From: Bacillota bacterium
GTDB taxonomy: Bacteria > Bacillota > JAAYKD01
Length of the DNA stretch: 64,000 bases
Direction: 5' to 3'
Assembly (NCBI GenBank): GCA_963666425.2
Contig: OY762825.2
Location: 1,088,001-1,152,000, forward strand
In this document: piece after piece, positions 10,246 to 26,276 of the stretch
Layout: the number at the start of each line of letters is the position of its first letter
Numbering within the stretch: the stretch's first letter is position 1
Notes under the pieces: generated by a model
The model's input: the letters and a program-made list of their open reading frames with translations, nothing else
Told to the model about the DNA's origin: nothing
The model's database searches: none
Position numbers and translations under genes: made by a program

Positions 10246-13080
<2,835 letters not shown>

Positions 13081-13091
<11 letters not shown>

Positions 13092-13851
13092 AGTTTTTCT
13101 CCGCTTTGGTGATAATGCTCAAGAATTCTTCAGCCATTAAACAGGCTCCACCCACCAAAGCCCCATCAATCTCCGGCTGCAGCATATACTCAAGAATATT
13201 ACCGGCTTTCACGCTGCCTCCATAGAGAATCCGAATTTCTGCAGCCCAGCGATTGCCAAATACGCTGGCACAAGCTTCGCGAATAGCCGCAATCATTGCA
13301 TTTGCCATGGAAGCGCTGCAATTCTTGCCGGTTCCAATCGCCCAAATTGGTTCGTAAGCGATAATTATCTGCTCCGGCTTCAATTCAGCTAAATCACCGA
13401 TGACGTGAACCACTTGGTTTATGACAAATTGCGTCGCTTTACCAGCCTCCCGAATCGCAAGGCTTTCACCTACACAGAGCACAGGTACCAGCTCGCTGGC
13501 TAACGCCGCCTTTACTTTCTCCTGCACAAAGTCATCCGTTTCTGCCAGGAGTGTTCGGCGCTCGCTATGCCCAACCAATACATATTGACAACCGGCTGCT
13601 TTCAGCATGGGGGCTGAAATTTCGCCTGTATAAGCACCCGAATCGACCGGATAAACATTTTGCGCTCCGATTGACCAGTTCGTCTTGGGCAGGATCAGCG
13701 CAGACTGTGGAATCATCAGGTAGGGAGGGCAAATCACCGCTTCTACTTGGCCGGACAATTCAGCCGCAGCCAAGGCTTGCAAAAGATCAAGCGCTGACGT
13801 TGCAGCAGGATTCATTTTCCAGTTTCCGATAATCAAAGGCTTTCTCATCAT
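13081..13851 (-). CDS. tpiA: Triosephosphate isomerase
   Basis: GNWKMN, GHSERR, AYEPIWAIGTG, LYGGSV. Confidence 0.98.
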
Positions 13852-13857
13852 AACACC

Positions 13858-15039
13858 TTAACGATCCAGCAGACAGGCGACACCGGGCAGAATCTTACCT
13901 TCTAAAAATTCTAGAGAGGCTCCGCCACCGGTAGAAATATGCGTCATAGCGGCTGCAAAACCAGCTTTTTCGACGGCGGCAGCAGAATCGCCTCCACCAA
14001 TAATGGAAATAGCAGAGGATTCTGCAATTGCTTTCGCAACAGCAAAGGTGCCGGCAGAGAATTGATCAATTTCAAACACACCCATCGGTCCGTTCCAAAT
14101 CACCGTTCCGGCATGAGCTAAAACCTGAGCAAAGGAAGCTACTGTGAGTGGACCGATATCGAGTGCCATTTCATTGTCAGCGATCGCATTTGGCAAGACC
14201 ACTCTGGCTACAGCATCAGCCGATAGCGCGGTCGCCACGACCAAATCCTGCGGCAGCATTAACGCTACTTTTTTCTCCACTGCTTTGGCCATAATCTCCT
14301 GGGCTACTTCTACTTTGTCCGCTTCCACCAGAGAAGCCCCCATCCTGATTCCTTTGGCCAAGAGGAACGTATTCGCCATGCCGCCACCAATGATCAATCC
14401 ATCCACCTTATCAAGCAAGTTCATCAAGACAGCAATTTTATCTGATACTTTTGCTCCCCCAATCACTGCAATAAAAGGCCGCTTGGGCTGTTCCAGCGCC
14501 ATACCCAAATACTCCAGTTCCTTCTCCATTAAAAGCCCGGCACCGGCAGGCAGATACTTTGCTACCCCAACCGTAGTAGCATGAGCACGATGGGCAGCAC
14601 CAAAGGCATCATTGATAAAAAGATCAGCATAAGAAGCCAACTCTTGAGCCAAGGCGTCTTCATTCAGTTCCTCACCAGGATGAAAACGACTGTTCTCCAA
14701 TAAAAGCACTTCGCCGGATTTTAAGTCAGCTGTAGCTTGTTTTGCGATTGGACCCACAAATTCCCGACAATATTGCACCGGCAGTTTCAGCAGTTCTTCC
14801 AGTCGTTCAGCAATTTTATTTAGACGATATTTTTCATTGATTTTCCCCTTCGGACGTCCAAAATGGCTGGTAAGGATAACGGCAGCGTGATGCTCCAGTA
14901 AATACTGTATGGTAGGTAAAGCGCCACGGATTCTGGCATCATTGCTGATTTCACCCTGCTCATCGGTCGGAACATTAAAGTCCACTCTCACCAAAACCTT
15001 TTTTCCAGTTACATCAAAATCACGAACTGTTTTTTTCAA
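13858..15039 (-). CDS. pgk: Phosphoglycerate kinase
   Basis: RVDFNVP, GGAKVSDK, WNGPMGVFE, STGGGASLE; TTG start. Confidence 0.98.
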   Translation of the reverse strand: MKKTVRDFDVTGKKVLVRVDFNVPTDEQGEISNDARIRGALPTIQYLLEHHAAVILTSHFGRPKGKINEKYRLNKIAERLEELLKLPVQYCREFVGPIAKQATADLKSGEVLLLENSRFHPGEELNEDALAQELASYADLFINDAFGAAHRAHATTVGVAKYLPAGAGLLMEKELEYLGMALEQPKRPFIAVIGGAKVSDKIAVLMNLLDKVDGLIIGGGMANTFLLAKGIRMGASLVEADKVEVAQEIMAKAVEKKVALMLPQDLVVATALSADAVARVVLPNAIADNEMALDIGPLTVASFAQVLAHAGTVIWNGPMGVFEIDQFSAGTFAVAKAIAESSAISIIGGGDSAAAVEKAGFAAAMTHISTGGGASLEFLEGKILPGVACLLDR

Positions 15040-15165
15040 AACGATTAATCCTCCTTACTGAAGTTTAAAAAACAAAGCGGCTCCTGCATAAGCCGCCTTG
15101 TCCTTATTTCTTACTGCTTCACCGCTAAAGTAAAATCCGCTCTCTCTGGCCGCGGTACGTCAATC

Positions 15166-16170
15166 TTATAAACCTTGGCGGGCAATAAAGGCAGCCATGT
15201 CGCATAAACGGCAGGTATAACCCCATTCATTATCATACCAAGCCAGCACTTTCACTTGATTGCTGCCCATAACCATCGTTAAAGGTGCATCGACAATCGC
15301 ACTGTAATTGGTACCTTTCAGATCGATGGAAACGATCGGATCGTGACTGACCGTCAAAATACCTTTCATCTCGCCCGCAGCAGCTTCTTCAAAAGCCGCA
15401 TTGACGGATTCTACGCTGACAGGTTTTAGGGTATCCACTACCAAATCGACAATAGAAACAGTAGGAGTGGGAACGCGCAAAGCTAAACCATCCATCTTTC
15501 CCTTTAACACAGGTAAGACGGAGGCCAGCGCTTTTGTAGCACCACTGGTCGTTGGAATGATGGATAGGGCTGCAGCACGGGCTCTTCTTAAATCCTTATG
15601 AGACTTATCCAAGATATTCTGATCATTGGTATAAGAGTGAATCGTAGTCATAAAACCTTTTTCAATTCCGAATTTATCCTGCAGCACTTTCGCTACCGGA
15701 GCTAAACAGTTGGTAGTGCAGGATGCATTGGAAATGAGATAATGATTTTTAGGATCATACATCTCTTCGTTGACTCCCATTACCAAAGTGACATCCTCAT
15801 GCTTGCCGGGTGCCGATAAAAGAACTTTCTTTACGCCAACTTGCTGATATAAAAGCGCCTTTTGCTTCTCCGTAAATTTACCGGTACAATCGATCACCAA
15901 TTCAACGCCTAAATCCGCCCAAGGTAAATTCTGAGGTTCTTTTTCTTGCGAATAACGGATTTCTTTATGATTGATGATCATCATGTTAGGTTTCGTTTCA
16001 ACTGTACCATTCCATGTACCATAGCTGGAATCATACTTAAATAAATAAGCTGAACTCTCAACCGGACCGTTGCTGTTGATGGCAACCAGTTGAATATCCG
16101 AACTGTCTACCAGCATGCGAGTTGCCAGACGTCCTATTCGTCCAAAACCGTTGATGGCGACTTTAACCAT
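15166..16170 (-). CDS. gap: Type I glyceraldehyde-3-phosphate dehydrogenase
   Basis: INGFGRIGR, ASCTTNCL, WYDNEWGY. Confidence 0.97.
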   Translation of the reverse strand: MVKVAINGFGRIGRLATRMLVDSSDIQLVAINSNGPVESSAYLFKYDSSYGTWNGTVETKPNMMIINHKEIRYSQEKEPQNLPWADLGVELVIDCTGKFTEKQKALLYQQVGVKKVLLSAPGKHEDVTLVMGVNEEMYDPKNHYLISNASCTTNCLAPVAKVLQDKFGIEKGFMTTIHSYTNDQNILDKSHKDLRRARAAALSIIPTTSGATKALASVLPVLKGKMDGLALRVPTPTVSIVDLVVDTLKPVSVESVNAAFEEAAAGEMKGILTVSHDPIVSIDLKGTNYSAIVDAPLTMVMGSNQVKVLAWYDNEWGYTCRLCDMAAFIARQGL

Positions 16171-16380
16171 AGTGAATAACCCCTTTCTGATTGTGAAATG
16201 AACTATATTATATCAATTCGCTTTTTAGTAGTAAAATCCTCTTTTCAAAACGTATAATGTACTGTATATTCGAGTTGGGATATGCATTCTTTTAGGGTTA
16301 TGACATCATAAATAATATAAACCTCAGATAAAATCTTTGCAGGATAGATAACAGAAGAGAAAATTGCTGTTTTTTGTACA

Positions 16381-16423
16381 ATAAAAAACTGTCCTGCTTT
16401 TATAAAAAGCAGGACAGTTTTTT
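16381..16423 (-). terminator. Terminator of four-gene operon copy A
   Basis: AAAAAACTGTCCTGCTTTT-ata-AAAAGCAGGACAGTTTTTT perfect inverted repeat right after the stop codon. Confidence 0.85.
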
Positions 16424-16426
16424 GAA

Positions 16427-17074
16427 TTATACCTTTAGCAAATGGAGCCAATCACCAAACAGGAAGGTCAAACGACCGATCAACAGAGAAATACGAGCCA
16501 TAACGGTATTACCGAATGATGCGCCGAAGCCGATCATAATCGCGATACGGCCCCAATTGGCTGCATATTTGAAAACACCTTTGCGTTCGATCGTAAAGAA
16601 GAAGTAAATCAGAACGCCAAGAACAATCGTGACAAAGAGTATATTGTTGAAACTGTTCCAAATATCCAAACTGCCTTTGGTCATCACAACCAACGGTTTG
16701 ATGGACTGGGTCATCTGGGTGAAGAACGGGATAACCTGACGAGCGGATAACACCAAAGCGGCGTTATAACCAATCCAAAAGGCCATCGGGATACGAGCGA
16801 TCCAAGCATACGGACGATACATATTGAAGTAAATCAAAAGACCGATAACCATCGGGATAATTTCCCACCAAGTGCCGGCTGTCGGCATCGAGGTGATGGC
16901 AGGTTTTACGGTGTTGTTCCAGGTGGTAACAATACCATGTGCCGCAGAGGTACCAACATACAGATGCTCGGCAATACGATAAATCGGATTTTCTTTATAC
17001 AGTATCGAAAACAACATCAGGGTTACTAAGGCAGAAAGCCAATTTCCCAGTGTCGGAGTTAAAATAGCTTGCAT
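16427..17074 (-). CDS. Uncharacterised polytopic membrane protein (gene 4, copy A)
   Basis: 215 aa, about 6-7 hydrophobic segments; YKENPIYRIAEHLYVG and MIGFGASFGNTVMAR motifs; GGAGGTG RBS; paralog at 20497-21144. Confidence 0.88.
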   Translation of the reverse strand: MQAILTPTLGNWLSALVTLMLFSILYKENPIYRIAEHLYVGTSAAHGIVTTWNNTVKPAITSMPTAGTWWEIIPMVIGLLIYFNMYRPYAWIARIPMAFWIGYNAALVLSARQVIPFFTQMTQSIKPLVVMTKGSLDIWNSFNNILFVTIVLGVLIYFFFTIERKGVFKYAANWGRIAIMIGFGASFGNTVMARISLLIGRLTFLFGDWLHLLKV

Positions 17075-17093
17075 TATGAAAGTCACCTCCTAA

Positions 17094-17930
17094 TTATTTT
17101 ACTTCTCCTGCTTTTCTCGCTGCGAAGTAACCAATATTACCCAAAATCAAGAACAGAATGATAACAACATGTCCCATTGATTGAGAGTCCATACCGCCAG
17201 TAGCAGCACCCAATTTTCCGGCAATTTTCTCTAAATAGGCAGCACCGGAAAGTCCGGAGACATTACCTTTGAGTAAGCCGGCTTGATAGTAATTGGTCAT
17301 CGTCGGAGTATTGACAGCCACAGAGGAACTAACGATTGGAACACTCTCAGTGGAATTCCATTGTTGAATCCAGGCGGTCGGACCGGGATCGCCGGAATTG
17401 AAAGTAACAACACAGGTAAAGTCTTTTGCCTTGGTTACATTCTTCATCATTGGGATTGTAGTTAATTTAGCACCGTTGGCATCAACACCGCCATTGCAGG
17501 CGCCATATAAGTCAGTTCTGGACTGTTCCAAGAAAGACTGATAGCTTGGCTGATAACCAAGGTTGCAATAATCAACGCCATATTCGGCCTTGTATTCGGT
17601 AGTAATCGGATCTCCCCAGATCTTGGCAAAGCTATTTCCTTCAGCCCATAAAGCGATAAAATAAACTTTGTGGCCAAGTTCAAATGATTTTCTCACCAAA
17701 ACATCAAAAGCCGGTTTTAATTCGGTAATACCGGAAGCAGATGTGTCGAGAGAATACAATATCTTAGATCCTGCAGGCAAACTGGTTATGTAGTCGTAGG
17801 CTGCTTGGGTTGGTTCATCGGAAGGAACCGGCAAACCCAAAGGATAAAACATGGGAATGGCAATTGCCAGAACCATGATGATATACAGAACACGACGGTC
17901 GATCCCCATTAATCTTTTATACCACGGCAT
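17094..17930 (-). CDS. Uncharacterised protein, TM-soluble domain-TM (gene 3, copy A)
   Basis: 278 aa; basic N-terminus, TM, ~210-aa soluble domain, C-terminal MDSQSMGH + TM; GGAGG RBS; paralog at 21164-22000. Confidence 0.88.
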   Translation of the reverse strand: MPWYKRLMGIDRRVLYIIMVLAIAIPMFYPLGLPVPSDEPTQAAYDYITSLPAGSKILYSLDTSASGITELKPAFDVLVRKSFELGHKVYFIALWAEGNSFAKIWGDPITTEYKAEYGVDYCNLGYQPSYQSFLEQSRTDLYGACNGGVDANGAKLTTIPMMKNVTKAKDFTCVVTFNSGDPGPTAWIQQWNSTESVPIVSSSVAVNTPTMTNYYQAGLLKGNVSGLSGAAYLEKIAGKLGAATGGMDSQSMGHVVIILFLILGNIGYFAARKAGEVK

Positions 17931-17968
17931 ATTGATTGTGCCTCCTTTTTGTTATTACAGCGAGTCGA

Positions 17969-18592
17969 TTATTCTGCCATATAACCACGTTCGATACCGA
18001 ACAGGTTACGAGCACCTTGTGCGAATGCACCAAGAGCTACACCAAGAGAAACGGCACGAATTACCGGTGTGTTGAAGTAGTTCATGATCCAAACTTTCGC
18101 CTGCGGTAAAACAGGTGAAATCGCAGAACCAATGGATGTGCCGCCCAACATTACGATGCAGGCAGATAAGAGAAGCGCTGTCGCTTCCAAACTGCGAGCG
18201 CGGAATGCACGGTAGGCTGCTGAGCCAATATAGAAGCACAGCAATGCAAAAACGGTGGAACCGCCGGTTACAGCAGTGTTCTGGTAGAACCAGTTATAAG
18301 TAACACTGTTATGGCCGCCCGGTAAAGTAACGCCCAAAACCATCAACAAGACAAAACCAAAGATCAGAATCAGACTGTTAATCCAGCCGTCGCGTCTACG
18401 GGCAACTCTGTGCCAATGCACACGCATCAAGGAAATACCACCCAAAGCAATGGCCGTTGCGACGGACAAAGTCTGGCTGCGAACCAAATAGTTCTGAACT
18501 AATGTGTTGAAAGCCGGTGAAATGAAGATATCTTTTAGTATAACGATCAAACCAGTCACCAATGTGATTACCATCGGCAATGTTCTACGCAT
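17969..18592 (-). CDS. Uncharacterised polytopic membrane protein (gene 2, copy A)
   Basis: 207 aa, about 6 hydrophobic segments; SAAYRAFRARSLEA motif; GGAGGTG RBS; paralog at 22036-22659. Confidence 0.88.
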   Translation of the reverse strand: MRRTLPMVITLVTGLIVILKDIFISPAFNTLVQNYLVRSQTLSVATAIALGGISLMRVHWHRVARRRDGWINSLILIFGFVLLMVLGVTLPGGHNSVTYNWFYQNTAVTGGSTVFALLCFYIGSAAYRAFRARSLEATALLLSACIVMLGGTSIGSAISPVLPQAKVWIMNYFNTPVIRAVSLGVALGAFAQGARNLFGIERGYMAE

Positions 18593-18621
18593 AGATTACA
18601 CCTCCTGTTGTTAGTTTCTCT

Positions 18622-19476
18622 TTAATACAGTTTCAATAAATCCATGATCACATTCGTTTTCACGCCTGTGAAGGAACCAATCGTTGCCGCGATAACGCCG
18701 AGAACGATGATGATCAAGGTGAATTGTTTTCCCCAGTCCTGAACGACAATAGTTGCCAAGCGGACTCTGTCCTGACCTAAGTAAGCACCGGCAACGTAGA
18801 TTTCTTCACCAATCAAGCAATAGTCGCAAGCAACGATGAAGAAAGGAGTCTGGCTGGTAGAACTGGTAGCTGCGACCTGAATCGCGCCTGCCTGGTTGCC
18901 GGCTTCGGCGAATACCAAAGATTCAGCATAGAACAGACCGAACATAACCAGAGCAGCAACGCCTTCACGGTTCATGATACCGACTACGCCGGCGGCATAA
19001 CCGAATTGGTCATTGGTTAAGAAACGAACATCATCTTCACGATACGCATCCGGTTTGCCCACTTCAAAATAAGCGGCGCGAACAACGGATTCGGTAATCG
19101 GCTGGACAGACGGTGTACGGTTGCAGACGATCATACGAGCGTCGTATTTCGCAATCAATTTGGCGACATGGCCCAATACGTTGAAAGAGGCTAAGGTATC
19201 AGCAGAGGTTAAGTCACCAATACCAGGGCTATACAGAACGGGACGGCCCATTTCTGTTGCACGGCCAACTACTTCGTCAACGGCATCCAAACCGGCAATC
19301 CGGCGAACCTTCGGAATCGCACCTCCGGTGCGGGCTTTCTTTACCATGAGCAGCAGTGCCGCAACATAAATGATCAAGAAAAGTGTAGATGACAAACCGA
19401 GATTTCCATTGCTGTACAGCCATTTGGAAAAGAACGGTTTGATTGAAGTTGCAATATTTTGCATAAACGGTGTCAT
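18622..19476 (-). CDS. DUF6754-like protein (gene 1, copy A)
   Basis: 284 aa from MTPF (GGAGGTG RBS); RRIAGLDAVDEVVGRATEMGRPV and CDYCLIGEEIY motifs recalled as DUF6754; N- and C-terminal TM helices. Confidence 0.8.
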   Translation of the reverse strand: MTPFMQNIATSIKPFFSKWLYSNGNLGLSSTLFLIIYVAALLLMVKKARTGGAIPKVRRIAGLDAVDEVVGRATEMGRPVLYSPGIGDLTSADTLASFNVLGHVAKLIAKYDARMIVCNRTPSVQPITESVVRAAYFEVGKPDAYREDDVRFLTNDQFGYAAGVVGIMNREGVAALVMFGLFYAESLVFAEAGNQAGAIQVAATSSTSQTPFFIVACDYCLIGEEIYVAGAYLGQDRVRLATIVVQDWGKQFTLIIIVLGVIAATIGSFTGVKTNVIMDLLKLY

Positions 19477-19758
19477 AAGTTTGCACCTCCTGTAAGATTT
19501 TACAATGTATTGAATAAAATAAACAGATGATAACATGATATACTGGAAAGTTTGAAAGAGAATTTTTGTTTGATCAATGCCGCCTTTACTTTCACCTCCC
19601 TGACAACACGTCTGTATGCGATTTTCAAAAACAATAATAAGATCGGCAATTTAGAAAATATCTACCAATTTTATGAATTGTTTTTGATACTTAGATAAAT
19701 ATGACGCAACCATGAATTTTCTACAATGATTTACGCAGCAATATCTAAGAACGCGCTT

Positions 19759-19787
19759 ATAATAAGCCATAAATCAAAATCTGTCAA
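19759..19787 (-). promoter_or_regulatory. sigma-A promoter of copy A
   Basis: TTGACA-17 nt-TATTAT, about 280 nt upstream of the start codon. Confidence 0.65.
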
Positions 19788-20421
19788 ACTATTTTTTTCA
19801 AATTTTCTGCCATCTTTTATTTAATCTTTGTGAAACGCCTAAAACCTTCATATTCATTCAATATATTTGATTTATGAGAATTATTGCTCTTTTACATAAA
19901 ATATTCATAATATTTTAGCTATTTTATTCACATTAAGCGGTTACTGTTTTCGAATTTTTCGATATACTTCATTTCATTTTAAAAGATTTATATTCGTTTC
20001 ATGTCACCATATGATCCGAAAAAATGTTTATTATCAATATTTTGTAATAACTATGATATTTACGCGTGAATATATGCTTTAAATTGATAGTAGCATCAAA
20101 TTGATAGAATTTGATTATTTACCTCTAGATGGCAAATTCTCAATAATATATTAAGACAACAGCTACAAAGTAAAAACATGTTGCTGTTGTTCGCTTTTTC
20201 TGCTTTAACAGACTCATTCGTTGAGCAAACCGATGATATCTACAATAAATTAATAGCAAAATCACTATTCGCATTGGATAAATCGTATTTGTCCACTAAA
20301 AAACCAGATTAAGACCCGAACTGGTTTTTTCATAAGCCAATCAGACAAGTAAAACGATATTTGCTTTATCCTTCAGACTTTTTCAATCGTTTCTCCTGTC
20401 TGGTGAGTAACAGTACAACAT

Positions 20422-20469
20422 AAAAAAGCCCCTTAATCAAAAGATTGCTCTTTTAACTAAGGGGTTTTT
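20422..20469 (-). terminator. Terminator of four-gene operon copy B
   Basis: AAAAAAGCCCCTTA...TAAGGGGTTTTT imperfect inverted repeat after the stop codon. Confidence 0.7.
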
Positions 20470-20496
20470 GATCATTTAATGCTGCAATTTACTCGA

Positions 20497-21144
20497 TTAT
20501 ACTTTCAGTAAATGGAGCCAGTCGCCAAACAGGAACGTCAAACGACCGATTAATAAGGAAATACGAGCCATAACGGTATTACCGAATGATGCGCCAAAAC
20601 CGATCATGATAGCGATACGGCCCCAGTTGGCTGCATATTTGAAAACACCTTTGCGCTCGATGGTAAAGAAGAAGTAAATCAAAACACCCAAGACAATGGT
20701 GACAAAGAGGATATTGTTGAAGCTCAACCACCAGTCAAAATTACCCTTTGTCATTACAACCAATGGTTTGATGGACTGGGTCATCTGGGTGAAGAACGGA
20801 ATAACCTGACGGGCGGATAACACCAAAGCGGCGTTATAACCAATCCAGAAGGCCATCGGAATACGGGCAATCCAGGCATACGGACGATACATGTTGAAGT
20901 AAATCAAAAGTCCGATTACCATCGGGATAATTTCCCACCAGGTGCCGGCTGTCGGCATCGAGGTAATGGCAGGCTTTACGGTGTTGTTCCAAGTAGTGAC
21001 AATACCATGAGCCGCTGAGGTGCCAACATATAGATGCTCTGCAATACGGTAAATCGGATTTTCTTTATACAGTATGGAAAACAACATCAGGGTTATTAAG
21101 GCCGAGAGCCAATTTCCCAGTGTTGGAGTAAGGATAGCTGCCAT
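20497..21144 (-). CDS. Uncharacterised polytopic membrane protein (gene 4, copy B)
   Basis: 215 aa; 6 substitutions vs copy A by manual comparison. Confidence 0.88.
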   Translation of the reverse strand: MAAILTPTLGNWLSALITLMLFSILYKENPIYRIAEHLYVGTSAAHGIVTTWNNTVKPAITSMPTAGTWWEIIPMVIGLLIYFNMYRPYAWIARIPMAFWIGYNAALVLSARQVIPFFTQMTQSIKPLVVMTKGNFDWWLSFNNILFVTIVLGVLIYFFFTIERKGVFKYAANWGRIAIMIGFGASFGNTVMARISLLIGRLTFLFGDWLHLLKV

Positions 21145-21163
21145 TTTTCAAGTCACCTCCTGT

Positions 21164-22000
21164 TTATTTAACCGCGCCTGCTTTTCTGGCTGCGAAGTAA
21201 CCAATGTTACCCAAGACTAAGAACAGAATAATAATGACATGGCCCATCGATTGTGAGTCCATACCACCGGTAGCGGATCCTAATTTGCCGGATAATTTCT
21301 CAATATAAGCAGCGCCGGCTAAACCGCCGACATTACCTTTCAGTAAACCGGCTTGGAAATAATTCTCCATGGTCGGTGTGGATACTGAGGTGCAGGCTGA
21401 AAGGATCGGAACACTTTCGGTTGCATTCCACTGTTGAATCCAAGCGGTCGGACCGGGATCACCGGTGTTGTAAGACATAACAGCGTCAAAATCTTTTGCT
21501 TTTGTTACGTTCTTCATCATCGGGAAGGTGCTCAGCTTGGCGCCGTTGGCATCAATGCCACCGTTGCAGGCAGTATACAAATCTGTTCTGGATTGCTCCA
21601 ACCAAGATTGATAACTGACCATGTAACCTAATTTAATATAGTTCACACCGTAAACAGCCTTATATTCCTCGGCAATTGGGTCCATCCAGATAGAACCAAG
21701 GTTATTGCCCTCAGCCCATAAAGCCATAATAAATACATTATGACCTAATTCAAAAGACCTTCTGGCCAGAACATCTGCGGTCGGTTTTAATTCAGTTAAG
21801 CCGGATGCAGATAAGTCAAAGGAATACAGTACATTCGATCCTGCTGGCAGGTTGGAAATATAATCCCAAGTAGACTGAGTGGCAGCATCAGGCGGTACCG
21901 GCAAACCTATCGGGGAAAACATGGGAAAGGTAATCCCGACGGCTAAAATAATGTATAGAATACGACGGTCAATCCCCATTAATCTTTTATACCACGGCAT
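21164..22000 (-). CDS. Uncharacterised TM-soluble domain-TM protein (gene 3, copy B)
   Basis: 278 aa from MPWY (AAAGGAGG RBS); about 72 substitutions vs copy A. Confidence 0.88.
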   Translation of the reverse strand: MPWYKRLMGIDRRILYIILAVGITFPMFSPIGLPVPPDAATQSTWDYISNLPAGSNVLYSFDLSASGLTELKPTADVLARRSFELGHNVFIMALWAEGNNLGSIWMDPIAEEYKAVYGVNYIKLGYMVSYQSWLEQSRTDLYTACNGGIDANGAKLSTFPMMKNVTKAKDFDAVMSYNTGDPGPTAWIQQWNATESVPILSACTSVSTPTMENYFQAGLLKGNVGGLAGAAYIEKLSGKLGSATGGMDSQSMGHVIIILFLVLGNIGYFAARKAGAVK

Positions 22001-22035
22001 ATTGATTGTGCCTCCTTTCATTTGTAAACGAGCAC

Positions 22036-22659
22036 TTATTCTGCCATATAACCACGTTCGATACCGAACAGGTTACGAGCACCTTGTGCGAATGCACCAA
22101 GAGCTACACCAAGAGAAACGGCACGGATTACCGGTGTATTGAAGTAGTTCATGATCCATACTTTAATCTGCGGTAAAGCCGGAGAAATCGCAGAACCAAT
22201 GGATGTGCCGCCCAACATTACAAAACAGGCAGATAAGAGAAGCGCTGTCGCTTCCAAGCTGCGGGCGCGGAATGCACGGTAGGCTGCCGAACCAATGTAG
22301 AAGCACAATAAAGAGAAAACAGTGGAACCGCCCGACACGGCAGTATTCTGATAGAACCAGTTATAAGTAACACTGTTATGGCCGCCCGGTAAAGTAACGC
22401 CCAGAACCATCAACAAGACAAAACCAAAAATCAGAATAACGCTGTTGATCCAGCCGTCACGTCTGCGGGTAACTCTGTGCCAATGCACACGCATCAAGGA
22501 AATACCACCCAAAGCAATGGCCGTTGCGACGGACAAAGTCTGGCTGCGAACCAAATACTGCTGAACTAAAGTATTGAAGGTTGGGGAAATAAAGATATCC
22601 TTCAGTATAACGATGATACCAGTCACCAATGTGATTACCATCGGCAATGTTCTACGCAT
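22036..22659 (-). CDS. Uncharacterised polytopic membrane protein (gene 2, copy B)
   Basis: 207 aa; 10 substitutions vs copy A. Confidence 0.88.
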   Translation of the reverse strand: MRRTLPMVITLVTGIIVILKDIFISPTFNTLVQQYLVRSQTLSVATAIALGGISLMRVHWHRVTRRRDGWINSVILIFGFVLLMVLGVTLPGGHNSVTYNWFYQNTAVSGGSTVFSLLCFYIGSAAYRAFRARSLEATALLLSACFVMLGGTSIGSAISPALPQIKVWIMNYFNTPVIRAVSLGVALGAFAQGARNLFGIERGYMAE

Positions 22660-22688
22660 AGATTACACCTCCTGTTGTTAGTTTCTCT

Positions 22689-23543
22689 TTAATACAGTTT
22701 CAATAAATCCATGATCACATTCGTTTTCACGCCTGTGAAGGAACCAATCGTTGCCGCGATAACGCCAAGTACGATGATGATCAAGGTGAATTGTTTTCCC
22801 CAGTCCTGAACGACAATAGTTGCCAAGCGGACTCTGTCCTGACCTAAGTAAGCACCGGCAACGTAGATTTCTTCACCAATCAAGCAATAGTCGCAAGCAA
22901 CGATGAAGAAAGGAGTCTGGCTGGTGGAACTTGTAGCTGCGACCTGAATCGCGCCTGCCTGGTTGCCGGCTTCGGCGAATACCAAAGATTCAGCATAGAA
23001 CAGACCGAACATAACCAGAGCAGCAACGCCTTCACGGTTCATGATACCGACTACGCCGGCGGCATAACCGAATTGGTCATTGGTTAAGAAACGAACATCA
23101 TCTTCACGATACGCATCCGGTTTGCCCACTTCAAAATAAGCGGCGCGAACAACGGATTCGGTAATCGGCTGGACAGACGGTGTACGGTTGCAGACGATCA
23201 TACGAGCGTCGTATTTCGCAATCAATTTGGCGACATGGCCCAATACGTTGAAAGAGGCTAAGGTATCAGCAGAGGTTAAGTCGCCAATACCAGGGCTATA
23301 CAGAACGGGACGGCCCATTTCTGTTGCACGGCCAACTACTTCGTCAACGGCATCCAAACCGGCAATCCGGCGAACTTTCGGAATCGTGCCACCGGTCCGG
23401 GCTTGCTTTACCATGAGCAGCAGCGCCGCAACATAAACAATCAAAAAGAGTGTAGATGACAAACCGAGATTTCCATTGCTGTACAGCCATTTGGAAAAGA
23501 ACGGTTTGATTGAAGTTGCAATATTTTGCATAAACGGTGTCAT
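22689..23543 (-). CDS. DUF6754-like protein (gene 1, copy B)
   Basis: 284 aa from MTPF; 3 substitutions vs copy A. Confidence 0.8.
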   Translation of the reverse strand: MTPFMQNIATSIKPFFSKWLYSNGNLGLSSTLFLIVYVAALLLMVKQARTGGTIPKVRRIAGLDAVDEVVGRATEMGRPVLYSPGIGDLTSADTLASFNVLGHVAKLIAKYDARMIVCNRTPSVQPITESVVRAAYFEVGKPDAYREDDVRFLTNDQFGYAAGVVGIMNREGVAALVMFGLFYAESLVFAEAGNQAGAIQVAATSSTSQTPFFIVACDYCLIGEEIYVAGAYLGQDRVRLATIVVQDWGKQFTLIIIVLGVIAATIGSFTGVKTNVIMDLLKLY

Positions 23544-23784
23544 AAGTTTGCACCTCCTGTATGTTTCAAATGATATGTTTTGAATCTGTTTGTTGTGTCT
23601 TTCCCGAACCATGAATAAAATAGAATGAATAAAGATTCCACTGTTGGTAAAAGCGCTTCCATTTCGTTATTTTGCTGCATACCCCCTTTTTTACCGCATC
23701 GCAATTTGTCTGATTTTACAATGCTATGCTACTTTTTGAGATTATTAGAGCAAACGGGAAAAAACTTATAACAAAACTAGCTTC

Positions 23785-23813
23785 ATTTTATACAAGTGCT
23801 CGATTTTTGTCAA
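23785..23813 (-). promoter_or_regulatory. sigma-A promoter of copy B
   Basis: TTGACA-17 nt-TAAAAT, about 240 nt upstream of the start codon. Confidence 0.65.
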
Positions 23814-24454
23814 GAAGAAAAACTAGCTAAATTCCCATTTTCCTTTATAATGTTTTTGTAGAGTAACCAATTTCCGCACTTATTTTTACCATATATTCTG
23901 ATCCGAAAGCTGAATATTTATTATAATATTCAGGTATTTAAATTACTGACCTTGCTTTCAGCTATTTCATTCTAGTTTTAAGAGAGAATTAACAAATTGA
24001 TACCTTATAAGACATATTAAATTATATTTGTTTGAGAAAACTATCACAATTATGCGTAATGCACCATGTGTTTGTTAAGTATTTTTAATTCTTAACAAAT
24101 TAAAAGTATATTCCAGCAATATTTGCCTATTTTTTCTAAAATTAAACTTATAATTCCATATTTTCCCGCACTATATTTTTTTTCAATTACTTCTCATTAC
24201 TCTTTTTTAAGACTATTTAACCTGTTATTTCGATTGATCTATTTTACTCTTCTTGGAATGAATCCGGTCGAGAATTACTAAACAAATACAAAGACCGACA
24301 ACATACCGCAAACAAAATGCGGGATTCTCATTCCAAGCGATACTTCCTTCACTGAAAAGGTTACAGATTCTCACTATTTCATGACATCGGACAGCTTATT
24401 GCTAGCGTTATTATCTGGCGATTCCCTTTTGAACAGAGCAGCTTTTCAGAGTAT

Positions 24455-24493
24455 AAAAAACCCGCAGATGCAGCTTTTTTCAGCATCTGCGGA
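24455..24493 (-). terminator. Terminator after the glutaredoxin
   Basis: CCGCAGATGC...GCATCTGCGG stem flanked by an A-run (U-tail on the minus strand). Confidence 0.7.
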
Positions 24494-24507
24494 TAAAATC
24501 GATCTGA

Positions 24508-24783
24508 TTAATTTTTTAGAACTGACAGATCAGTTGGCAATTCAAGATAATATTCTGCTTGGTCACCATCATCGACAGCGATCATCGGAATTCCCACTCT
24601 GCCTGCGCCGCGTATTTCTGCATACAGTTTTAATGTATCTCGTAGTTTTAAAAATTCCTTCAACGGTTTCATACCGGAAGTGATATCAACATATTCGAAT
24701 TCAATCGCATTTTGGGAAAGAACCTCTTTCACCTTGGGGCAGCCGGGTCAGAAACTGCTGCCGAAGACTTTGATTTTTTTCAT
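24508..24783 (-). CDS. Glutaredoxin-like selenoprotein (UPGC active site)
   Basis: AAGGAGGA RBS, ATG 24783, MKKIKVFGSSF-TGA-PGCPKVKEVL continuing in frame into track ORF 24508..24732 (YVDIT, RVGIP cis-Pro motif); hairpin GAAAGA-GGT-TCTTTC about 17-32 nt after the TGA. Confidence 0.85.
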
Positions 24784-25001
24784 AGACAAATCCTCCTTAT
24801 CCATTCTTTTATTATCAATATTTTGAATACTGATTCTCTTTCTCACTTCGTTTTTCTCCTACCTGTTTCCTTCCTTACAGGCAAGTATCTGCAGCGATTG
24901 ATCAAAAAAATCAAACTGCGAAATTAGGCGAGGAATACTATGAAAAACTTGCTTTCTTGTAGTAAAAAGATTATGATAGGGCAATAAGGAGGGATATATG
25001 C

Positions 25002-26276
25002 ATGCTAACAAAGAATTTCGCTTTAAAACTGTTCAACGGTTTTTCCATCCAACGCTGGAATGATATGGCCCGCTCCGCAGAACTAACAGAAATGGACAAC
25101 AGCAGTTTAAAAATGATGACAGCCTATCTGATCGGTCATGTCGAAATCGAAGCACAAAAGCAAAACGGTGTTACTCTGCAGGTAGATTGGCAGGAGATCA
25201 TTTATGCCAGTTTTTTTGATCTTCTGAGAAAAATCGCCCTTTCTGATATTAAATCCAGTGTTCATCACCGTATCCGCAATCAATATCCCGAGGAGTTCCG
25301 GAAACTGAATTATTGGGTTCTTGATCAATATAAAACAATCTTAGGTGACCTTGACCAAGAATTGCTGCAGCGATTTGCCGCTTATCTCACAGATGAACAT
25401 CCCTTAAAGCCAATGGAGGCTAGCATTCTCAGTGCCGCCCACGATTATGCAACCTATCGTGAATTTGAGCTGATTAAATTAGTCAATGTTTCTTCACCGC
25501 AGCTCTACTCAATCGAACAGCAATTGAATGCTGAAATGCAGAGCCATTTACAACTAAAGGGAATGCAGATGCTGGTGACCCGACAAAAATTGTATGAATT
25601 ACTCCTGAGATTGGAGCAGCTTCGTTTTCAAGTACGCTGGAGTCACACAGAACGCATACCGCGCACGACTGTTCTAGGTCATTCGATGCTGGTAGCCTGC
25701 TTTGCCATGCTGCTGACACGTCAGTTGCCCGATTTCCCAAAAATTCAGCAACCCGGCCGGATGATTTACAGCAATTTCTTTGCCGGACTTTTCCATGACC
25801 TGCCGGAAAGTGTGATTCGCGATATCGTTTCTCCGGTCAAGCGTGCTACCGTCAATCTGCCTGAGATAGTGAAAGAAATCGAAGACAGCATCGTGCGGGA
25901 AGAGCTTTATCCTTTGATGGGCGATTACCGCTTCAAAGATGAATTGATTGCTTATACCAGCCAGGAATTCCAAGATCGCCTGATCTTTGGTGCTACTCCC
26001 AATACGCAGCCGGTTTTACTGACAGCGGATCAATTTGAAAAATTACTTTTACAACCGCCAACGCTCGGATTGCCCGTCATGGGTTCTCTGATCGGCTTGT
26101 GCGATGAATATGCCGCTTATCTGGAAGCCTACCAATCGATCGATCACGGCATCAGCTCGAACTATCTGCGGCAAGCAGCCACTCATATTCGGCAGGATCT
26201 GAGCGCAGGACCGGAAATCGGTGGGTTGCCTGTCCGGAAATTGTTCGAAGGCTTTAAAGCATTCGACCTTGAATAA
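25002..26276 (+). CDS. HD-domain phosphohydrolase (tandem YfbR-like domains)
   Basis: SIQRWND, FQVRWS, TVLGHSMLVA, LFHDLPE...RDIVSPVK; AAGGAGG RBS. Confidence 0.85.
   Translation: MLTKNFALKLFNGFSIQRWNDMARSAELTEMDNSSLKMMTAYLIGHVEIEAQKQNGVTLQVDWQEIIYASFFDLLRKIALSDIKSSVHHRIRNQYPEEFRKLNYWVLDQYKTILGDLDQELLQRFAAYLTDEHPLKPMEASILSAAHDYATYREFELIKLVNVSSPQLYSIEQQLNAEMQSHLQLKGMQMLVTRQKLYELLLRLEQLRFQVRWSHTERIPRTTVLGHSMLVACFAMLLTRQLPDFPKIQQPGRMIYSNFFAGLFHDLPESVIRDIVSPVKRATVNLPEIVKEIEDSIVREELYPLMGDYRFKDELIAYTSQEFQDRLIFGATPNTQPVLLTADQFEKLLLQPPTLGLPVMGSLIGLCDEYAAYLEAYQSIDHGISSNYLRQAATHIRQDLSAGPEIGGLPVRKLFEGFKAFDLE

What the first reader, a model, noticed from the sequence alone, without database searches (positions are those of the whole stretch)
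16427..23543. Duplicated four-gene membrane module (DUF6754 operon): candidate undescribed transporter/sensor with one variable extracytoplasmic subunit
Seen: two tandem, co-oriented copies of the same four-gene operon, each with strong RBSs, its own promoter and its own terminator. Manual comparison between copies gives 3/284 aa differences for gene 1, 10/207 for gene 2, 6/215 for gene 4, but about 72/278 (~74% identity) for gene 3, mostly in its soluble domain. No ATPase, lipoprotein solute-binding protein, or FeS/flavin motif is present, so it is not a recognisable ABC, ECF, TRAP, PTS or Rnf system. Knowledge: gene 1 matches my recollection of DUF6754, and I know no function for any of the four. 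Inference: a conserved membrane core (genes 1, 2, 4) plus a specificity-determining receptor (gene 3), i.e. a possible new ion-coupled uptake system. The amino-acid-catabolic neighbourhood (gcv, dpaL, cysteine desulfidase, ridA) makes amino acids or peptides plausible substrates.
Basis: partly seen in the sequence, partly recalled or inferred. Interest (0 to 1): 0.85.

Follow-up and report, generated by a model that had tools for sequence, protein, structure and literature searches.

The report
Duplicated uncharacterised four-gene membrane machine
Two tandem copies of a widespread but undescribed four-protein membrane complex, which elsewhere travels with an actin-fold ATPase, and which most likely imports nutrients, though its function has not been tested.

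Summary
Two co-oriented minus-strand copies of a four-gene operon differ by 3/284, 10/207, 72/278 and 6/215 residues. An independent assembly bridges the junction between the copies.

Only gene 1 has a family, DUF6754. No characterised relative was found for any of the four proteins by sequence; structure was compared for genes 1 and 3 only.

The module is conserved:
- 75 of 80 loci from many phyla carry all four genes.
- 20 of 20 loci in close relatives do.
- This genome has four modules plus one orphan gene 3.

New here: the module is linked to a long MutL-type (actin-fold, ASKHA) ATPase and a barrel-sandwich partner.
- The pair lies within 7 kb in 21 of 80 loci.
- DUF6754 and the partner co-occur in 24 of the 27 genomes holding either, of 301 sampled, and in 48 of 53, of 201.
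- This genome has five such pairs, none in the window.

Gene 3 is old (dS 1.69) and under purifying selection (dN/dS 0.10). The other genes look homogenised by gene conversion.

Best reading: a substrate-specific uptake system with gene 3 as the exchangeable receptor (about 0.4). Function is untested.

The parts
18622..19476 (-). Copy A gene 1: DUF6754 protein, 284 aa. Layout: N-terminal helix, TM helix, cytoplasmic Rossmann-like domain, C-terminal TM helix.
   Evidence: PF20539 E 3.9e-90. AlphaFold model pLDDT 91. Long homologues carry a signal-like segment and fn3 or beta-propeller domains at the N-terminus, which places the N-terminus outside the cell.
17969..18592 (-). Copy A gene 2: polytopic membrane protein, 207 aa, no family.
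   Evidence: No Pfam hit. Only a sub-threshold NCBIfam hit (15.9 bits against a cut-off of 145). No consistent weak Pfam hit across 81 homologues. Atlas neighbours are all hypothetical proteins.
17094..17930 (-). Copy A gene 3: bitopic protein, 278 aa. TM helix, Rossmann-like domain inferred to be extracytoplasmic, TM helix. This is the variable subunit.
   Evidence: AlphaFold model pLDDT 96.2. Generic alpha/beta matches only, best Z 9.2. 95% identical to the orthologue in same-genus genome G048.
16427..17074 (-). Copy A gene 4: polytopic membrane protein, 215 aa from the ATG at 17074, no family.
   Evidence: No Pfam or NCBIfam hit. No consistent weak hit across 72 homologues. Atlas neighbours are all hypothetical proteins.
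16377..16423 (-). Terminator hairpin and U-run after copy A.
   Evidence: RNA fold -25.6 kcal/mol, z -8.46, 0 of 200 shuffles fold as well.
19759..19787 (-). Promoter-like site of copy A (TTGACA, 17 nt, TATTAT).
   Evidence: 11 of 12 consensus matches, tied best in the region. A consensus match only.
19477..20496 (-). Spacer between the copies, 29% G+C, with no ORF of 60 aa or more. It holds the copy B terminator, the copy A promoter-like site and a leader of about 280 nt.
   Evidence: No Rfam match apart from one chance-level miRNA hit elsewhere in the region. Not homologous to the region upstream of copy B.
22689..23543 (-). Copy B gene 1: DUF6754 protein, 284 aa.
   Evidence: PF20539 E 3.4e-90. 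3 of 284 residues differ from copy A, with a tract of about 700 nt at 98-100% identity.
22036..22659 (-). Copy B gene 2, 207 aa.
   Evidence: 10 of 207 residues differ from copy A; dS 0.30.
21164..22000 (-). Copy B gene 3, 278 aa from the ATG at 22000. The diverged paralogue.
   Evidence: 72 of 278 residues differ from copy A; dS 1.69, dN/dS 0.10. Closer than g3A to the single orthologues in sister genera: 72-76% against 65-68%. Carries D120N at an Asp that is 97% conserved.
20497..21144 (-). Copy B gene 4, 215 aa.
   Evidence: 6 of 215 residues differ from copy A; dS 0.56.
20419..20464 (-). Terminator hairpin and U-run after copy B.
   Evidence: 16-pair stem in the scan. Fold -23.4 kcal/mol, z -5.05.
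23785..23813 (-). Promoter-like site of copy B (TTGACA, 17 nt, TAAAAT).
   Evidence: 11 of 12 consensus matches. A consensus match only.
23544..24507 (-). Non-coding region upstream of copy B, 31.5% G+C.

Best explanation
Each copy encodes a four-subunit inner-membrane complex of a widespread, undescribed kind.

The subunits:
- g1 (DUF6754) has its N-terminus outside, one TM helix, a strongly conserved Rossmann-like domain in the cytoplasm and a second TM helix.
- g3 is the mirror image, with a Rossmann-like domain outside the cell held by a TM helix at each end.
- g2 and g4 are unrelated polytopic proteins that would form the membrane path.

Most likely it is a substrate-specific uptake system. 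g3 would be the membrane-tethered receptor that sets specificity. The core g1/g2/g4 could be shared or exchanged between receptors.

Energy would come from a cytoplasmic long MutL-type (actin-fold, ASKHA) ATPase and its barrel-sandwich partner. These are encoded elsewhere in this genome and would dock on the cytoplasmic domain of g1. In this lineage the substrates would be peptides or amino-acid conjugates.

The tandem pair is an old duplication, or a swap of the g3 cassette. g1, g2 and g4 have been homogenised by gene conversion while the two g3 genes stayed distinct under purifying selection.

Shown: the anatomy, the conservation of the module, its linkage to the ATPase pair, and the evolutionary pattern. 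Inferred: the topology of g3, assembly of the four proteins, transport, the direction of transport, the substrate and ATP coupling.
For: 1. It is a conserved unit.
- All four genes are present in 75 of 80 loci from many labelled phyla. Four of the five misses are cut by a contig end.
- 61 of 80 loci are contiguous on one strand in the order g1 to g4, by my ORF calls.
- 20 of 20 loci in relatives of the same family or order hold the full module.
- This genome has four modules.
- The g3 family has 4561 representative clusters at E<=1e-10.

2. It shows the multiplicity typical of transporter families.
- Genomes of the own order give 2 to at least 8 DUF6754 matches each, and G131 and G233 each carry a triple tandem array.

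3. g3 looks like an exchangeable receptor.
- It is the only gene not homogenised: dS 1.69 against 0.07, 0.30 and 0.56, with dN/dS 0.05-0.10 throughout.
- This genome has five g3 genes but four each of g1 and g4.
- The orphan g3 is 55-57% identical to A and B. It lies beside an M20-type peptidase gene. It is conserved as an orphan in G048 and G091.

4. The neighbours are catabolic enzymes that change with the paralogue.
- In this genome: Peptidase_C26 three times upstream of module D, and Peptidase_M32 plus DUF885 downstream of module C.
- Among 104 neighbouring ORFs in relatives: C26 8, M20_dimer 4, Peptidase_M20 3, PmbA/TldD 2, amidohydrolase 2.
- In Poribacteria-labelled loci: sulfatases 6 and xylose-isomerase-like TIM barrels 7, of 103 ORFs.

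5. It is linked to an ATPase.
- A MutL-long gene plus its partner lie within 7 kb in 21 of 80 loci, and four more loci hold one of the two. Most are on the same strand and directly flank the module.
- In the first sample of 301 genomes, DUF6754 is in 26, the partner in 25 and both in 24.
- In the second sample of 201 genomes (Planctomycetota-labelled centre), DUF6754 is in 52, the partner in 49 and both in 48. In 32 genomes the two lie within 5 kb.
- All 17 long-type (606-636 aa) MutL matches listed lie in genomes that have DUF6754.
- The five copies in this genome keep DxGSTTTK and DIGGATTD. I recall these as the ASKHA phosphate-1 and phosphate-2 motifs.

6. Topology.
- 1165 long DUF6754 proteins were found. 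All eight that I scanned place DUF6754 at the C-terminus, behind fn3, PQQ-like propeller or unassigned sequence. Two that I read start with a signal-like segment.
Against: - No subunit resembles any known transporter, binding protein or channel family.
Their number of helices is my reading of the sequence; a crude hydropathy scan was inconclusive.
- The folds of g1 and g3 are generic Rossmann-like. The best matches are Z 9-10 and do not stand out.
- The only described role for the MutL family is as a chaperone that reactivates glutamate mutase (PMC4682846, legend of Fig 4, read as a passage). No transporter driven by an ASKHA ATPase is known to me.
- Extracellular fn3, PQQ-propeller and FG-GAP/VCBS domains fused to g1 and g2 in other lineages are more usual in adhesins, receptors and surface enzymes than in transporter subunits.
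- The A/B differences in g3 are scattered along the sequence rather than clustered.
- In this genome no ATPase pair lies beside any module.
- In the window the direct neighbours are glycolytic and cell-wall genes.
- Neighbourhoods across phyla are heterogeneous.
- Kinship among the sampled genomes inflates the co-occurrence counts.
Confidence: 0.4

Rival explanations
1. It is a surface-sensing or signalling machine. The extracytoplasmic parts (g3, and the fn3/propeller extensions of g1 in other lineages) bind an external polymer or surface. The signal passes through g2/g4 to the conserved cytoplasmic domain of g1, and then to the actin-fold protein and its partner, which act as a scaffold or switch.
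For: - Large extracellular fn3, PQQ-like propeller and RGI-lyase-like domains sit on g1 among the 1165 long homologues found, and FG-GAP/VCBS domains on two of the eight long g2 forms.
- The cytoplasmic domain of g1 is the most conserved part of the module, with 15 invariant residues in 78 sequences.
- From recall: actin-fold proteins such as PilM, GspL and FtsA act as membrane-proximal scaffolds. The actin-superfamily grouping of the 'glutamate mutase' family is stated in PMC5597319 (passages read).
Against: - No output domain (kinase, DNA-binding, cyclase) was seen in the module or in the linked pair.
- The putative regulator upstream of module D is confined to orthologous loci.
- Many paralogues lie next to catabolic enzymes, which fits uptake at least as well.
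Confidence: 0.18
2. It is an export or envelope-assembly machine. It would move a polymer, lipid-linked precursor or protein outwards, powered by the ASKHA ATPase.
For: - Extracellular fn3 and propeller extensions.
- Occasional neighbours such as MurJ, FtsW/RodA, nucleotidyl transferases and PMT_2/TPR proteins.
- A bitopic protein with a large external domain next to six-helix partners recalls GldG/GldF-type and MreC/MreD-type sets. This comparison is from recall and was not tested.
Against: - Up to at least 8 paralogues per genome, with differing catabolic neighbours, would be unusual for an envelope machine.
- No glycosyltransferase or polymerase is consistently linked.
Confidence: 0.12
3. 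One reading: a self-sufficient, ion-coupled secondary transporter made of the four proteins alone. The MutL-long/partner pair would be only a metabolic or regulatory companion.
For: - In this genome none of the four modules has an ATPase gene beside it.
- 55 of 80 loci show no MutL-long or partner hit within 7 kb.
- Polar residues are conserved in the C-terminal TM helix of g3 (H254, N265), and charged ones in g2 and g4 (R179; E36, R94).
Against: - Near-complete phyletic co-occurrence with the partner protein: 24 of 27 and 48 of 53 genomes holding either.
- Frequent placement of the pair in the same operon.
- A large, invariant cytoplasmic domain on g1 has no obvious role in a simple secondary carrier.
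Confidence: 0.12
4. It is an ion-translocating enzyme complex. The cytoplasmic Rossmann-like domain of g1 would bind a nucleotide or dinucleotide, and chemistry there would be coupled to ion movement through g2/g4, in the manner of transhydrogenase or Nqr/Rnf.
For: - The g1 model aligns with sirtuins and with domain III of transhydrogenase PntB at Z 9.1-10.0.
- The partner protein has weak NqrA_N, RnfC_N and biotin-lipoyl hits.
Against: - These Z values do not stand above many unrelated Rossmann folds.
- No homologue of any Nqr or Rnf membrane subunit was found among the four module proteins, and no cofactor-binding family hit in them or in the partner proteins scanned.
- Only one invariant Cys is present, in g1.
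- Many diverging paralogues per genome do not suit a core bioenergetic complex.
Confidence: 0.08

Closest known systems
Binding-protein-dependent importers (ABC, TRAP, TTT)
   Same: One extracytoplasmic subunit diverges between paralogues while the membrane core stays similar. Orphan copies of that subunit exist. Many paralogous systems per genome lie next to catabolic enzymes. By my reading, the total of about 16 TM helices is of the same order as TRAP DctQM; that comparison is from recall.
   Different: No sequence relation to any ABC, TRAP or TTT component. The receptor is anchored by two TM helices and has a single Rossmann-like lobe, not a two-lobe hinge protein. There is no P-loop ABC ATPase. 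A second, cytoplasmic Rossmann-like subunit (g1) has no counterpart in those systems.
MutL/GlmL, the glutamate mutase reactivating chaperone (Pfam PF13941, ASKHA/actin superfamily)
   Same: The linked ATPase matches PF13941 over the whole profile, E 1e-100 to 1e-126.
   Different: It is a distinct long form of 580-636 aa, scoring about 340-430 bits. The 455-570 aa open frames listed for genomes without DUF6754 score 440-610 bits. It is paired with a barrel-sandwich protein, not with the glmS/glmE mutase genes. It follows DUF6754 phyletically.
NqrA / RnfC N-terminal barrel-sandwich hybrid domain
   Same: The partner protein gives weak hits to NQRA_N, RnfC_N, Biotin_lipoyl and DUF2118, and to NqrA chains in the PDB (E 0.02-0.03).
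   Different: All hits are near or below the family cut-offs. No other Nqr or Rnf subunit and no cofactor-binding family was found among the proteins scanned. The C-terminus gives a weak KOW/NusG-like hit (E 0.0016).
DUF6754 (Pfam PF20539)
   Same: g1 of both copies is a full-length member.
   Different: The family has no described function. No paper in the searched library holds 'DUF6754' or 'PF20539'. The fixed partnership with three other membrane proteins and with the ATPase pair is, as far as those searches show, not in print.

Membership tests
DUF6754 (PF20539) | Match to the Pfam profile above the gathering score (27 bits). | tested here: met
   g1A 301.9 bits and g1B 302.1 bits, covering profile positions 13-252 of 257.
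ABC importer | An ABC (P-loop) ATPase gene and ABC-type permease families in the operon. | tested here: not met
   None of the eight proteins hits any ABC family in Pfam at E<=0.1. g2 gives only TIGR03732 at 15.9 bits against a cut-off of 145.2. Across 81 g2 homologues, ABC2_membrane_4 appears in 2 and TMD0_ABC in 10, all weak.
ABC importer | A secreted or lipoprotein two-lobe solute-binding protein. | tested here: not met
   g3 has a TM helix at each end and one alpha/beta domain. Single lobes of periplasmic sugar-binding proteins align at Z 7.8-8.6, no better than unrelated Rossmann folds.
TRAP / TTT transporters | DctM/DctQ/DctP or TctA/TctB/TctC family membership. | tested here: not met
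   No Pfam or NCBIfam hit to these families for any subunit.
Rnf / Na+-NQR | Homologues of the membrane subunits (NqrB-E, RnfA/D/E/G) and flavin or Fe-S cofactor sites. | tested here: not met
   No such Pfam hit in the four module proteins. Only weak N-terminal barrel-sandwich hits in the separately encoded partner.
Glutamate mutase MutL/GlmL (PF13941), for the linked ATPase and not a window gene | Profile match above the cut-off. | tested here: met
   Five genes in this genome, 336-421 bits. L010 and L022 proteins give E about 1e-121.
Glutamate mutase MutL/GlmL (PF13941), for the linked ATPase | Placement between or beside the B12-dependent mutase genes that it reactivates. | tested here: not met
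   I scanned ten ORFs at the five loci of this genome. They are barrel-sandwich partners, an unknown 282-287 aa protein, RadA-like, CDP-alcohol phosphatidyltransferase, MFS and Tex proteins. No mutase subunit was among them. Only part of each neighbourhood was scanned.
Transhydrogenase PntB domain III / sirtuin-like dinucleotide-binding fold (for the g1 domain) | Structural match that stands above generic Rossmann folds, and a nucleotide-binding motif. | tested here: inconclusive
   Z 9.1-10.0, rmsd 3.4-3.8 over 138-146 residues, tied with short-chain dehydrogenases, glycosyltransferases and RCK domains. No motif test was made.
RCK/KTN (TrkA, KtrA) domains (for g1 and g3) | Structural match that stands out, and association with a Trk/Ktr-type channel. 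| tested here: inconclusive
   Z 8.5-9.2 for both models, not standing out. No TrkH/KtrB gene lies in the module.

The most novel reading that the evidence does not exclude
The four membrane proteins, the long MutL-type ATPase and its barrel-sandwich partner together form a new class of primary-active transporter. It would be driven by an actin-fold (ASKHA) ATPase rather than a P-loop, P-type or rotary one. A double-anchored Rossmann-like receptor (g3) would be swapped among shared cores to change specificity.
Probability: 0.22. Interest if true: 0.95.

Novelty: categorically new. Interest (0 to 1): 0.8.

Why it matters
The g3 family alone has 4561 representative clusters at 50% identity (E<=1e-10). 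The module occurs in loci labelled Bacillota, Planctomycetota, Zixibacteria, Poribacteria, WOR-3, Cloacimonadota, Elusimicrobia and Bathyarchaeia. Many of these groups are uncultured degraders of organic matter. Genomes carry from one to at least eight copies.

If it is a nutrient importer, a sizeable share of 'hypothetical membrane proteins' in these groups would gain a role, and metabolic reconstructions that now lack uptake routes could be corrected.

If the actin-fold ATPase powers it, that would be an energy-coupling principle not known for transport.

The tandem pair in this window offers a natural experiment. The two cores are nearly identical, with 3, 10 and 6 residue differences, while the receptors are 74% identical. 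A third, orphan receptor lies elsewhere in the genome.

Tried and rejected
**Searches that found nothing**
- PDB profile searches gave nothing significant for g1-g4 or for the MutL-long protein.
- Foldseek against the PDB gave no match at E<=1e-3 for the g1 or g3 model. VIA-align wide gave only generic Rossmann matches.
- hhalign gave no relation between g2 and g4 (probability 1.1%) or between g1 and g3 (2.7%). An ancient internal duplication with inverted topology is therefore unsupported, though not excluded.
- The ESM Atlas returned only unnamed clusters for g2 and g4.
- Weak-hit Pfam tallies over all homologues of g2 and g4 were noise.
- Rfam at E<=1 over 15000-26000 gave only a chance miRNA hit, so no known riboswitch lies in the long leaders.
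- Long fused forms of g3: none found (the tool calls this weak evidence). The exhaustive search shows a few homologues with an inserted stretch.
- Literature: 'DUF6754', 'PF20539' and 'PF13941' gave 0 papers each. The searches for glutamate mutase/MutL/reactivase and for GlmL gave only background. PMC5167688 was read as passages and is irrelevant.

**Complex prediction**
- I sent four chains with g3 as the partner. The tool's verdict is 'no answer'.
- Scores were 0.71, 0.74 and 0.71. The controls with the partner replaced scored 0.00 and 0.00. The control with g1 replaced scored 0.74, so the mark was not met.
- I use it neither for nor against binding.

**Sequencing runs**
- Short contigs of two metatranscriptome libraries, X7 and X12 from two studies, match parts of both copies with few differences. 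X7 includes a contig at 23368-23747 that reaches 204 nt upstream of the g1B ATG.
- The tool warns that contigs of an RNA library do not prove transcription. I therefore claim no expression.
- No RNA contig covers the spacer 19624-20454, which the two DNA runs X3 and X6 do cover. This is not evidence of anything.
- Habitat labels of runs with a small share of the words were not used.

**Other**
- The crude Kyte-Doolittle scan found the flanking helices of g1 and g3 but could not count helices in g2 and g4.
- The 443-aa protein upstream of module D, which I took for a regulator, has no Pfam hit. It is confined to orthologous loci, so it is not a general partner.
- The duplication could not be dated. 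g1A and g1B (98.1% nucleotide identity) are closer to each other than to the G048 orthologue (91-92%). g3A is far closer to G048's g3 (95% aa) than to g3B (74% aa). Gene conversion after an old duplication, and a recent duplication followed by replacement of g3, both fit.
- In G048 the contigs break inside g2, so its copy number is unresolved.
- Supplementary files were not consulted. None bears on a claim made here.

Full report
**What is in the window**

On the minus strand lie two co-oriented copies of a four-gene operon.
- Copy A: g1 18622-19476, g2 17969-18592, g3 17094-17930, g4 16427-17074.
- Copy B: g1 22689-23543, g2 22036-22659, g3 21164-22000, g4 20497-21144.

| Gene | Residues differing | Nucleotide identity |
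|---|---|---|
| g1 | 3 of 284 | 98.1% |
| g2 | 10 of 207 | 91.8% |
| g3 | 72 of 278 | 72.8% |
| g4 | 6 of 215 | 89.0% |

Expression signals:
- Every gene has GGAGG 7-10 nt before its ATG, and the gaps between genes are 19-38 nt.
- Each operon ends in a strong hairpin with a U-run.
- The two best promoter-like sites of the region sit 242 and 283 nt upstream of the two g1 starts. They are consensus matches only.
- The regions upstream of the two operons are about 1 kb long, 29-31% G+C against 47% for the window, free of ORFs and unrelated to each other.
- No Rfam family matches there.

Contigs of an independently labelled public run hold both g3 versions. One contig bridges g1A, the spacer and g4B, so the tandem arrangement is real.

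**What the proteins are**

Only g1 has a family: DUF6754, E about 4e-90. g2, g3 and g4 hit nothing in Pfam. The copy A proteins hit nothing above cut-off in NCBIfam.

Profiles built from 72-81 homologues find no solved relative.

AlphaFold models of g1 (pLDDT 91) and g3 (pLDDT 96.2) share one plan: a TM helix, a three-layer alpha/beta Rossmann-like domain and a TM helix.
- Foldseek finds no PDB match at E<=1e-3.
- VIA-align gives only generic matches: Z 9.2 at best for g3 and 10.4 for g1, tied among dehydrogenases, RCK domains, sirtuins, glycosyltransferases and single lobes of binding proteins.
- g2 and g4 are polytopic. By my reading each has about six helices; a crude hydropathy scan could not confirm this.
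- g2 and g4 are not detectably related to each other, and neither are g1 and g3.
- Weak-hit tallies over all homologues and the ESM Atlas give nothing for g2 or g4.

**Topology**

For g1 there is direct comparative evidence.
- A search for longer relatives found 1165 proteins of 525-2000 aa.
- In all eight that I scanned, DUF6754 is C-terminal. It sits behind fn3, PQQ-like beta-propeller, RGI-lyase-like or unassigned sequence.
- The two that I read begin with a signal-like hydrophobic segment.

So the N-terminus of g1 is outside and its Rossmann-like domain is cytoplasmic.

That domain is the most conserved part of the system. It has 15 invariant positions in 78 sequences, among them GRATExG, E185, Q200, Q209, D218, E225 and D247.

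For g3, the basic residues before the first helix and after the last one place the domain outside. This is inference from the positive-inside rule.

**Conservation**

I scanned one genome per species, using a DUF6754 alignment of this genome's four paralogues. The scan found 579 confirmed loci, and the best 80 were kept.
- 75 of the 80 hold all four genes by tblastn. Of the five misses, four (L036, L058, L059, L061) are cut by the end of the locus. One (L021) has 4.2 kb downstream without g2-g4.
- By my ORF calls, 61 of the 80 are contiguous on one strand in the order g1 to g4. Seven have all four genes but split or rearranged. Twelve lacked at least one called ORF.
- The labels span Bacillota, Zixibacteria, Poribacteria, WOR-3, Stahlbacteria, Cloacimonadota, Planctomycetota, Elusimicrobia, Bdellovibrionales and one Bathyarchaeia record.
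- The g3 profile finds 5616 representative clusters at E<=1e-3, 4561 at E<=1e-10 and 1898 at E<=1e-30. Nearly all are 270-300 aa.
- This genome has four modules: the two in the window and two more diverged ones, with g1 41-42% identical.
- In a sample of 301 genomes of the window's phylum, 26 carry DUF6754. That includes all 8 other genomes of the own order, with 2 to at least 8 matches each.
- All 20 loci that I fetched from six of those genomes hold complete modules. One locus holds a triple tandem array.

Neighbour tallies pointed first to Pfam 'MutL' (PF13941), the actin-superfamily family named after the glutamate mutase reactivating chaperone. The chaperone role is stated in PMC4682846 (passage read), and the superfamily grouping in PMC5597319 (passages read).

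The neighbour is a long form of about 580-636 aa. A 370-460 aa protein always follows it or sits next to it. That protein has weak barrel-sandwich hits (RnfC_N, NQRA_N, Biotin_lipoyl, DUF2118) and a weak KOW-like C-terminal hit.

| Test | Result |
|---|---|
| Adjacency in the 80 loci | Both genes within 7 kb in 21 loci, one of the two in 4 more. Mostly same strand, directly before g1 or after g4, under at least eight phylum labels |
| Co-occurrence, first sample (301 genomes) | DUF6754 in 26, partner in 25, both in 24. DUF6754 only: one genome 78% complete and one with a weak partial hit. Partner only: one genome |
| Co-occurrence, second sample (201 genomes, Planctomycetota-labelled centre) | DUF6754 in 52, partner in 49, both in 48, DUF6754 only 4, partner only 1 |
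| Distance in the second sample | Within 1 kb in 26 genomes and within 5 kb in 32 |
| PF13941 as a whole | Much wider: 118 of 301 genomes. All 17 long-type matches listed lie in DUF6754 genomes |
| Genomes where the pair is not adjacent | A Poribacteria-labelled and a Cloacimonadota-labelled genome still encode the partner |

This genome has five MutL-long genes, each beside a partner gene; one of those partner genes is broken. None lies in the window or beside a module.

Kinship among the sampled genomes inflates these counts. Even so, two phyla, many families and frequent operon fusion make a functional link the simplest reading. The working unit is therefore probably six proteins. The premise 'no ATPase' holds only for this window.

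**How the duplicate evolved**

Identity along the unit is a mosaic:
- 98-100% over about 700 nt of g1;
- 86-95% in g2;
- 62-81% in g3;
- 81-94% in g4.

Nei-Gojobori estimates give dS 0.066, 0.30, 1.69 and 0.56 for g1 to g4, with dN/dS of 0.05-0.10 in all four. Both g3 genes are therefore under purifying selection, and their divergence is old rather than adaptive in any detectable way.

The histories are discordant.
- g1A and g1B are closer to each other than to the orthologue in same-genus genome G048 (91-92% nucleotide identity).
- g3A is 95% identical in protein to G048's g3 but only 74% to g3B.
- The single orthologues in sister genera are nearer to g3B (72-76%) than to g3A (65-68%).

Two scenarios fit: gene conversion homogenised g1, g2 and g4 after an old duplication, or a recent duplication was followed by replacement of g3. 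In both, g3 is the part kept different.

The differences are spread through the fold. 49% of strand, 25% of helix and 16% of coil residues differ. Three differences fall at columns where at least 80% of the other homologues share one residue, among them D120N in copy B.

**An orphan receptor**

This genome has five g3 homologues but four each of g1 and g4.
- The fifth g3 is 55-57% identical to A and B.
- It stands alone after an M20-type peptidase gene. It lies about 8 kb from one MutL-long/partner pair.
- It is conserved, again without g1, in G048 and G091.

Orphan copies of the specificity subunit are familiar from binding-protein-dependent importers; that comparison is from recall.

**Surroundings**
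- In the window, copy A is followed by genes I read as gap, pgk and tpi, and then by gpmI and eno, which have Pfam hits. Copy B is preceded by a small ORF, an HD-domain gene and a penicillin-binding-protein gene.
- gcvT starts 5.4 kb away on the other strand.
- The other paralogues say more. Module D follows three Peptidase_C26 genes. Module C precedes Peptidase_M32 and DUF885 genes.
- Around modules of relatives, of 104 ORFs: C26 8, M20_dimer 4, Peptidase_M20 3, Cys/Met PLP enzymes 3, PmbA/TldD 2, amidohydrolases 2.
- In Poribacteria-labelled loci the neighbours are sulfatases and xylose-isomerase-like barrels.

Catabolic neighbours that change with the paralogue are what substrate-specific uptake systems show.

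**Verdict**

This is a real, conserved and undescribed membrane system, with g3 as its variable and exchangeable part. It is probably not a self-contained ion-coupled carrier.

My best reading, at about 0.4, is a substrate-specific importer whose energy comes from the linked actin-fold ATPase and its partner. In this lineage the substrates would be peptides or amino-acid conjugates.

The rivals:
- a surface-sensing machine (0.18), favoured by the extracellular fn3, propeller and FG-GAP fusions in other lineages;
- an export or envelope machine (0.12);
- an ion-coupled enzyme (0.08).

No function has been tested. The membrane subunits remain unfolded, and the complex prediction gave no verdict. 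That result is reported under Tried and rejected only.

Noticed in passing
G000:C1:2275836-2278812, 1181004-1184062, 1945897-1949424, 1038614-1042155, 733047-736319 (own genome, outside the window; loci L092-L096): Five gene pairs, each a long MutL-type ASKHA protein (580-629 aa) with a barrel-sandwich partner (373-461 aa). The partner gene at 735237-736319 carries stop codons (1 TGA, 2 TAA) and looks broken. No pair lies beside a DUF6754 module in this genome.
   Followed up: yes
G000:C1:2286299-2287126 (L097:8300-9142, + strand): An orphan fifth copy of gene 3, 280 aa, 55-57% identical to A and B. It has no g1, g2 or g4 nearby. It follows an M20-type peptidase gene and faces a gene pair that I read as KtrA/KtrB-like. 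The same arrangement, with the MutL-long/partner pair about 6 kb away, is kept in G048.
   Followed up: partly
window 19477-20496 and 23544-24507: Two AT-rich regions of about 1 kb (29% and 31.5% G+C), free of ORFs, lie upstream of the two operons. They are unrelated in sequence. Promoter-like sites imply leaders of 240-280 nt. No Rfam match was found.
   Followed up: partly
L094:8286-9134 and L096:8009-8872 (own genome): A 282-287 aa protein with no Pfam family sits between the partner gene and the MutL-long gene in two of the five pairs. The two copies are 32% identical.
   Followed up: no
L107 (G131:C26:10001-30000) and G233:C3:16047-23410: Triple tandem arrays of the whole four-gene module, about 3.3 kb apart, in two genomes of the same order. 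Tandem amplification of the module recurs in this group.
   Followed up: partly
Proteins P0005, P0074, P0042, P0071, P0081 (long DUF6754 forms); P0273, P0275 (long g2 forms): In other phyla g1 carries 400-1200 extra N-terminal residues with fn3, PQQ-like beta-propeller or RGI-lyase-like domains. Two long g2 forms carry FG-GAP/VCBS repeats.
   Followed up: partly
Proteins P0121 (630 aa), P0142 (838 aa), P0189 (537 aa): A few g3 homologues match the profile in two or three stretches with a long insertion, so extra domains may be inserted in the external domain. They were not characterised.
   Followed up: no
L006:291-2810 (own genome, upstream of module D): Three tandem Peptidase_C26 (gamma-glutamyl-hydrolase-type) genes, with a partial fourth at the locus edge. 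They are followed by a 443-aa protein with no Pfam family that is conserved only at orthologous loci.
   Followed up: partly
window 10246-16170, minus strand: A glycolytic gene row lies directly downstream of copy A. Pfam confirms enolase and cofactor-independent phosphoglycerate mutase. That 13081-13851, 13858-15039 and 15166-16170 are tpi, pgk and gap is my reading of the translations and was not tested.
   Followed up: partly
L118 and L119 (G048:C57 and C20): In the same-genus draft genome the contigs end inside gene 2, and the two ends overlap. Whether that genome has one copy of the module or two cannot be told from the assembly.
   Followed up: partly
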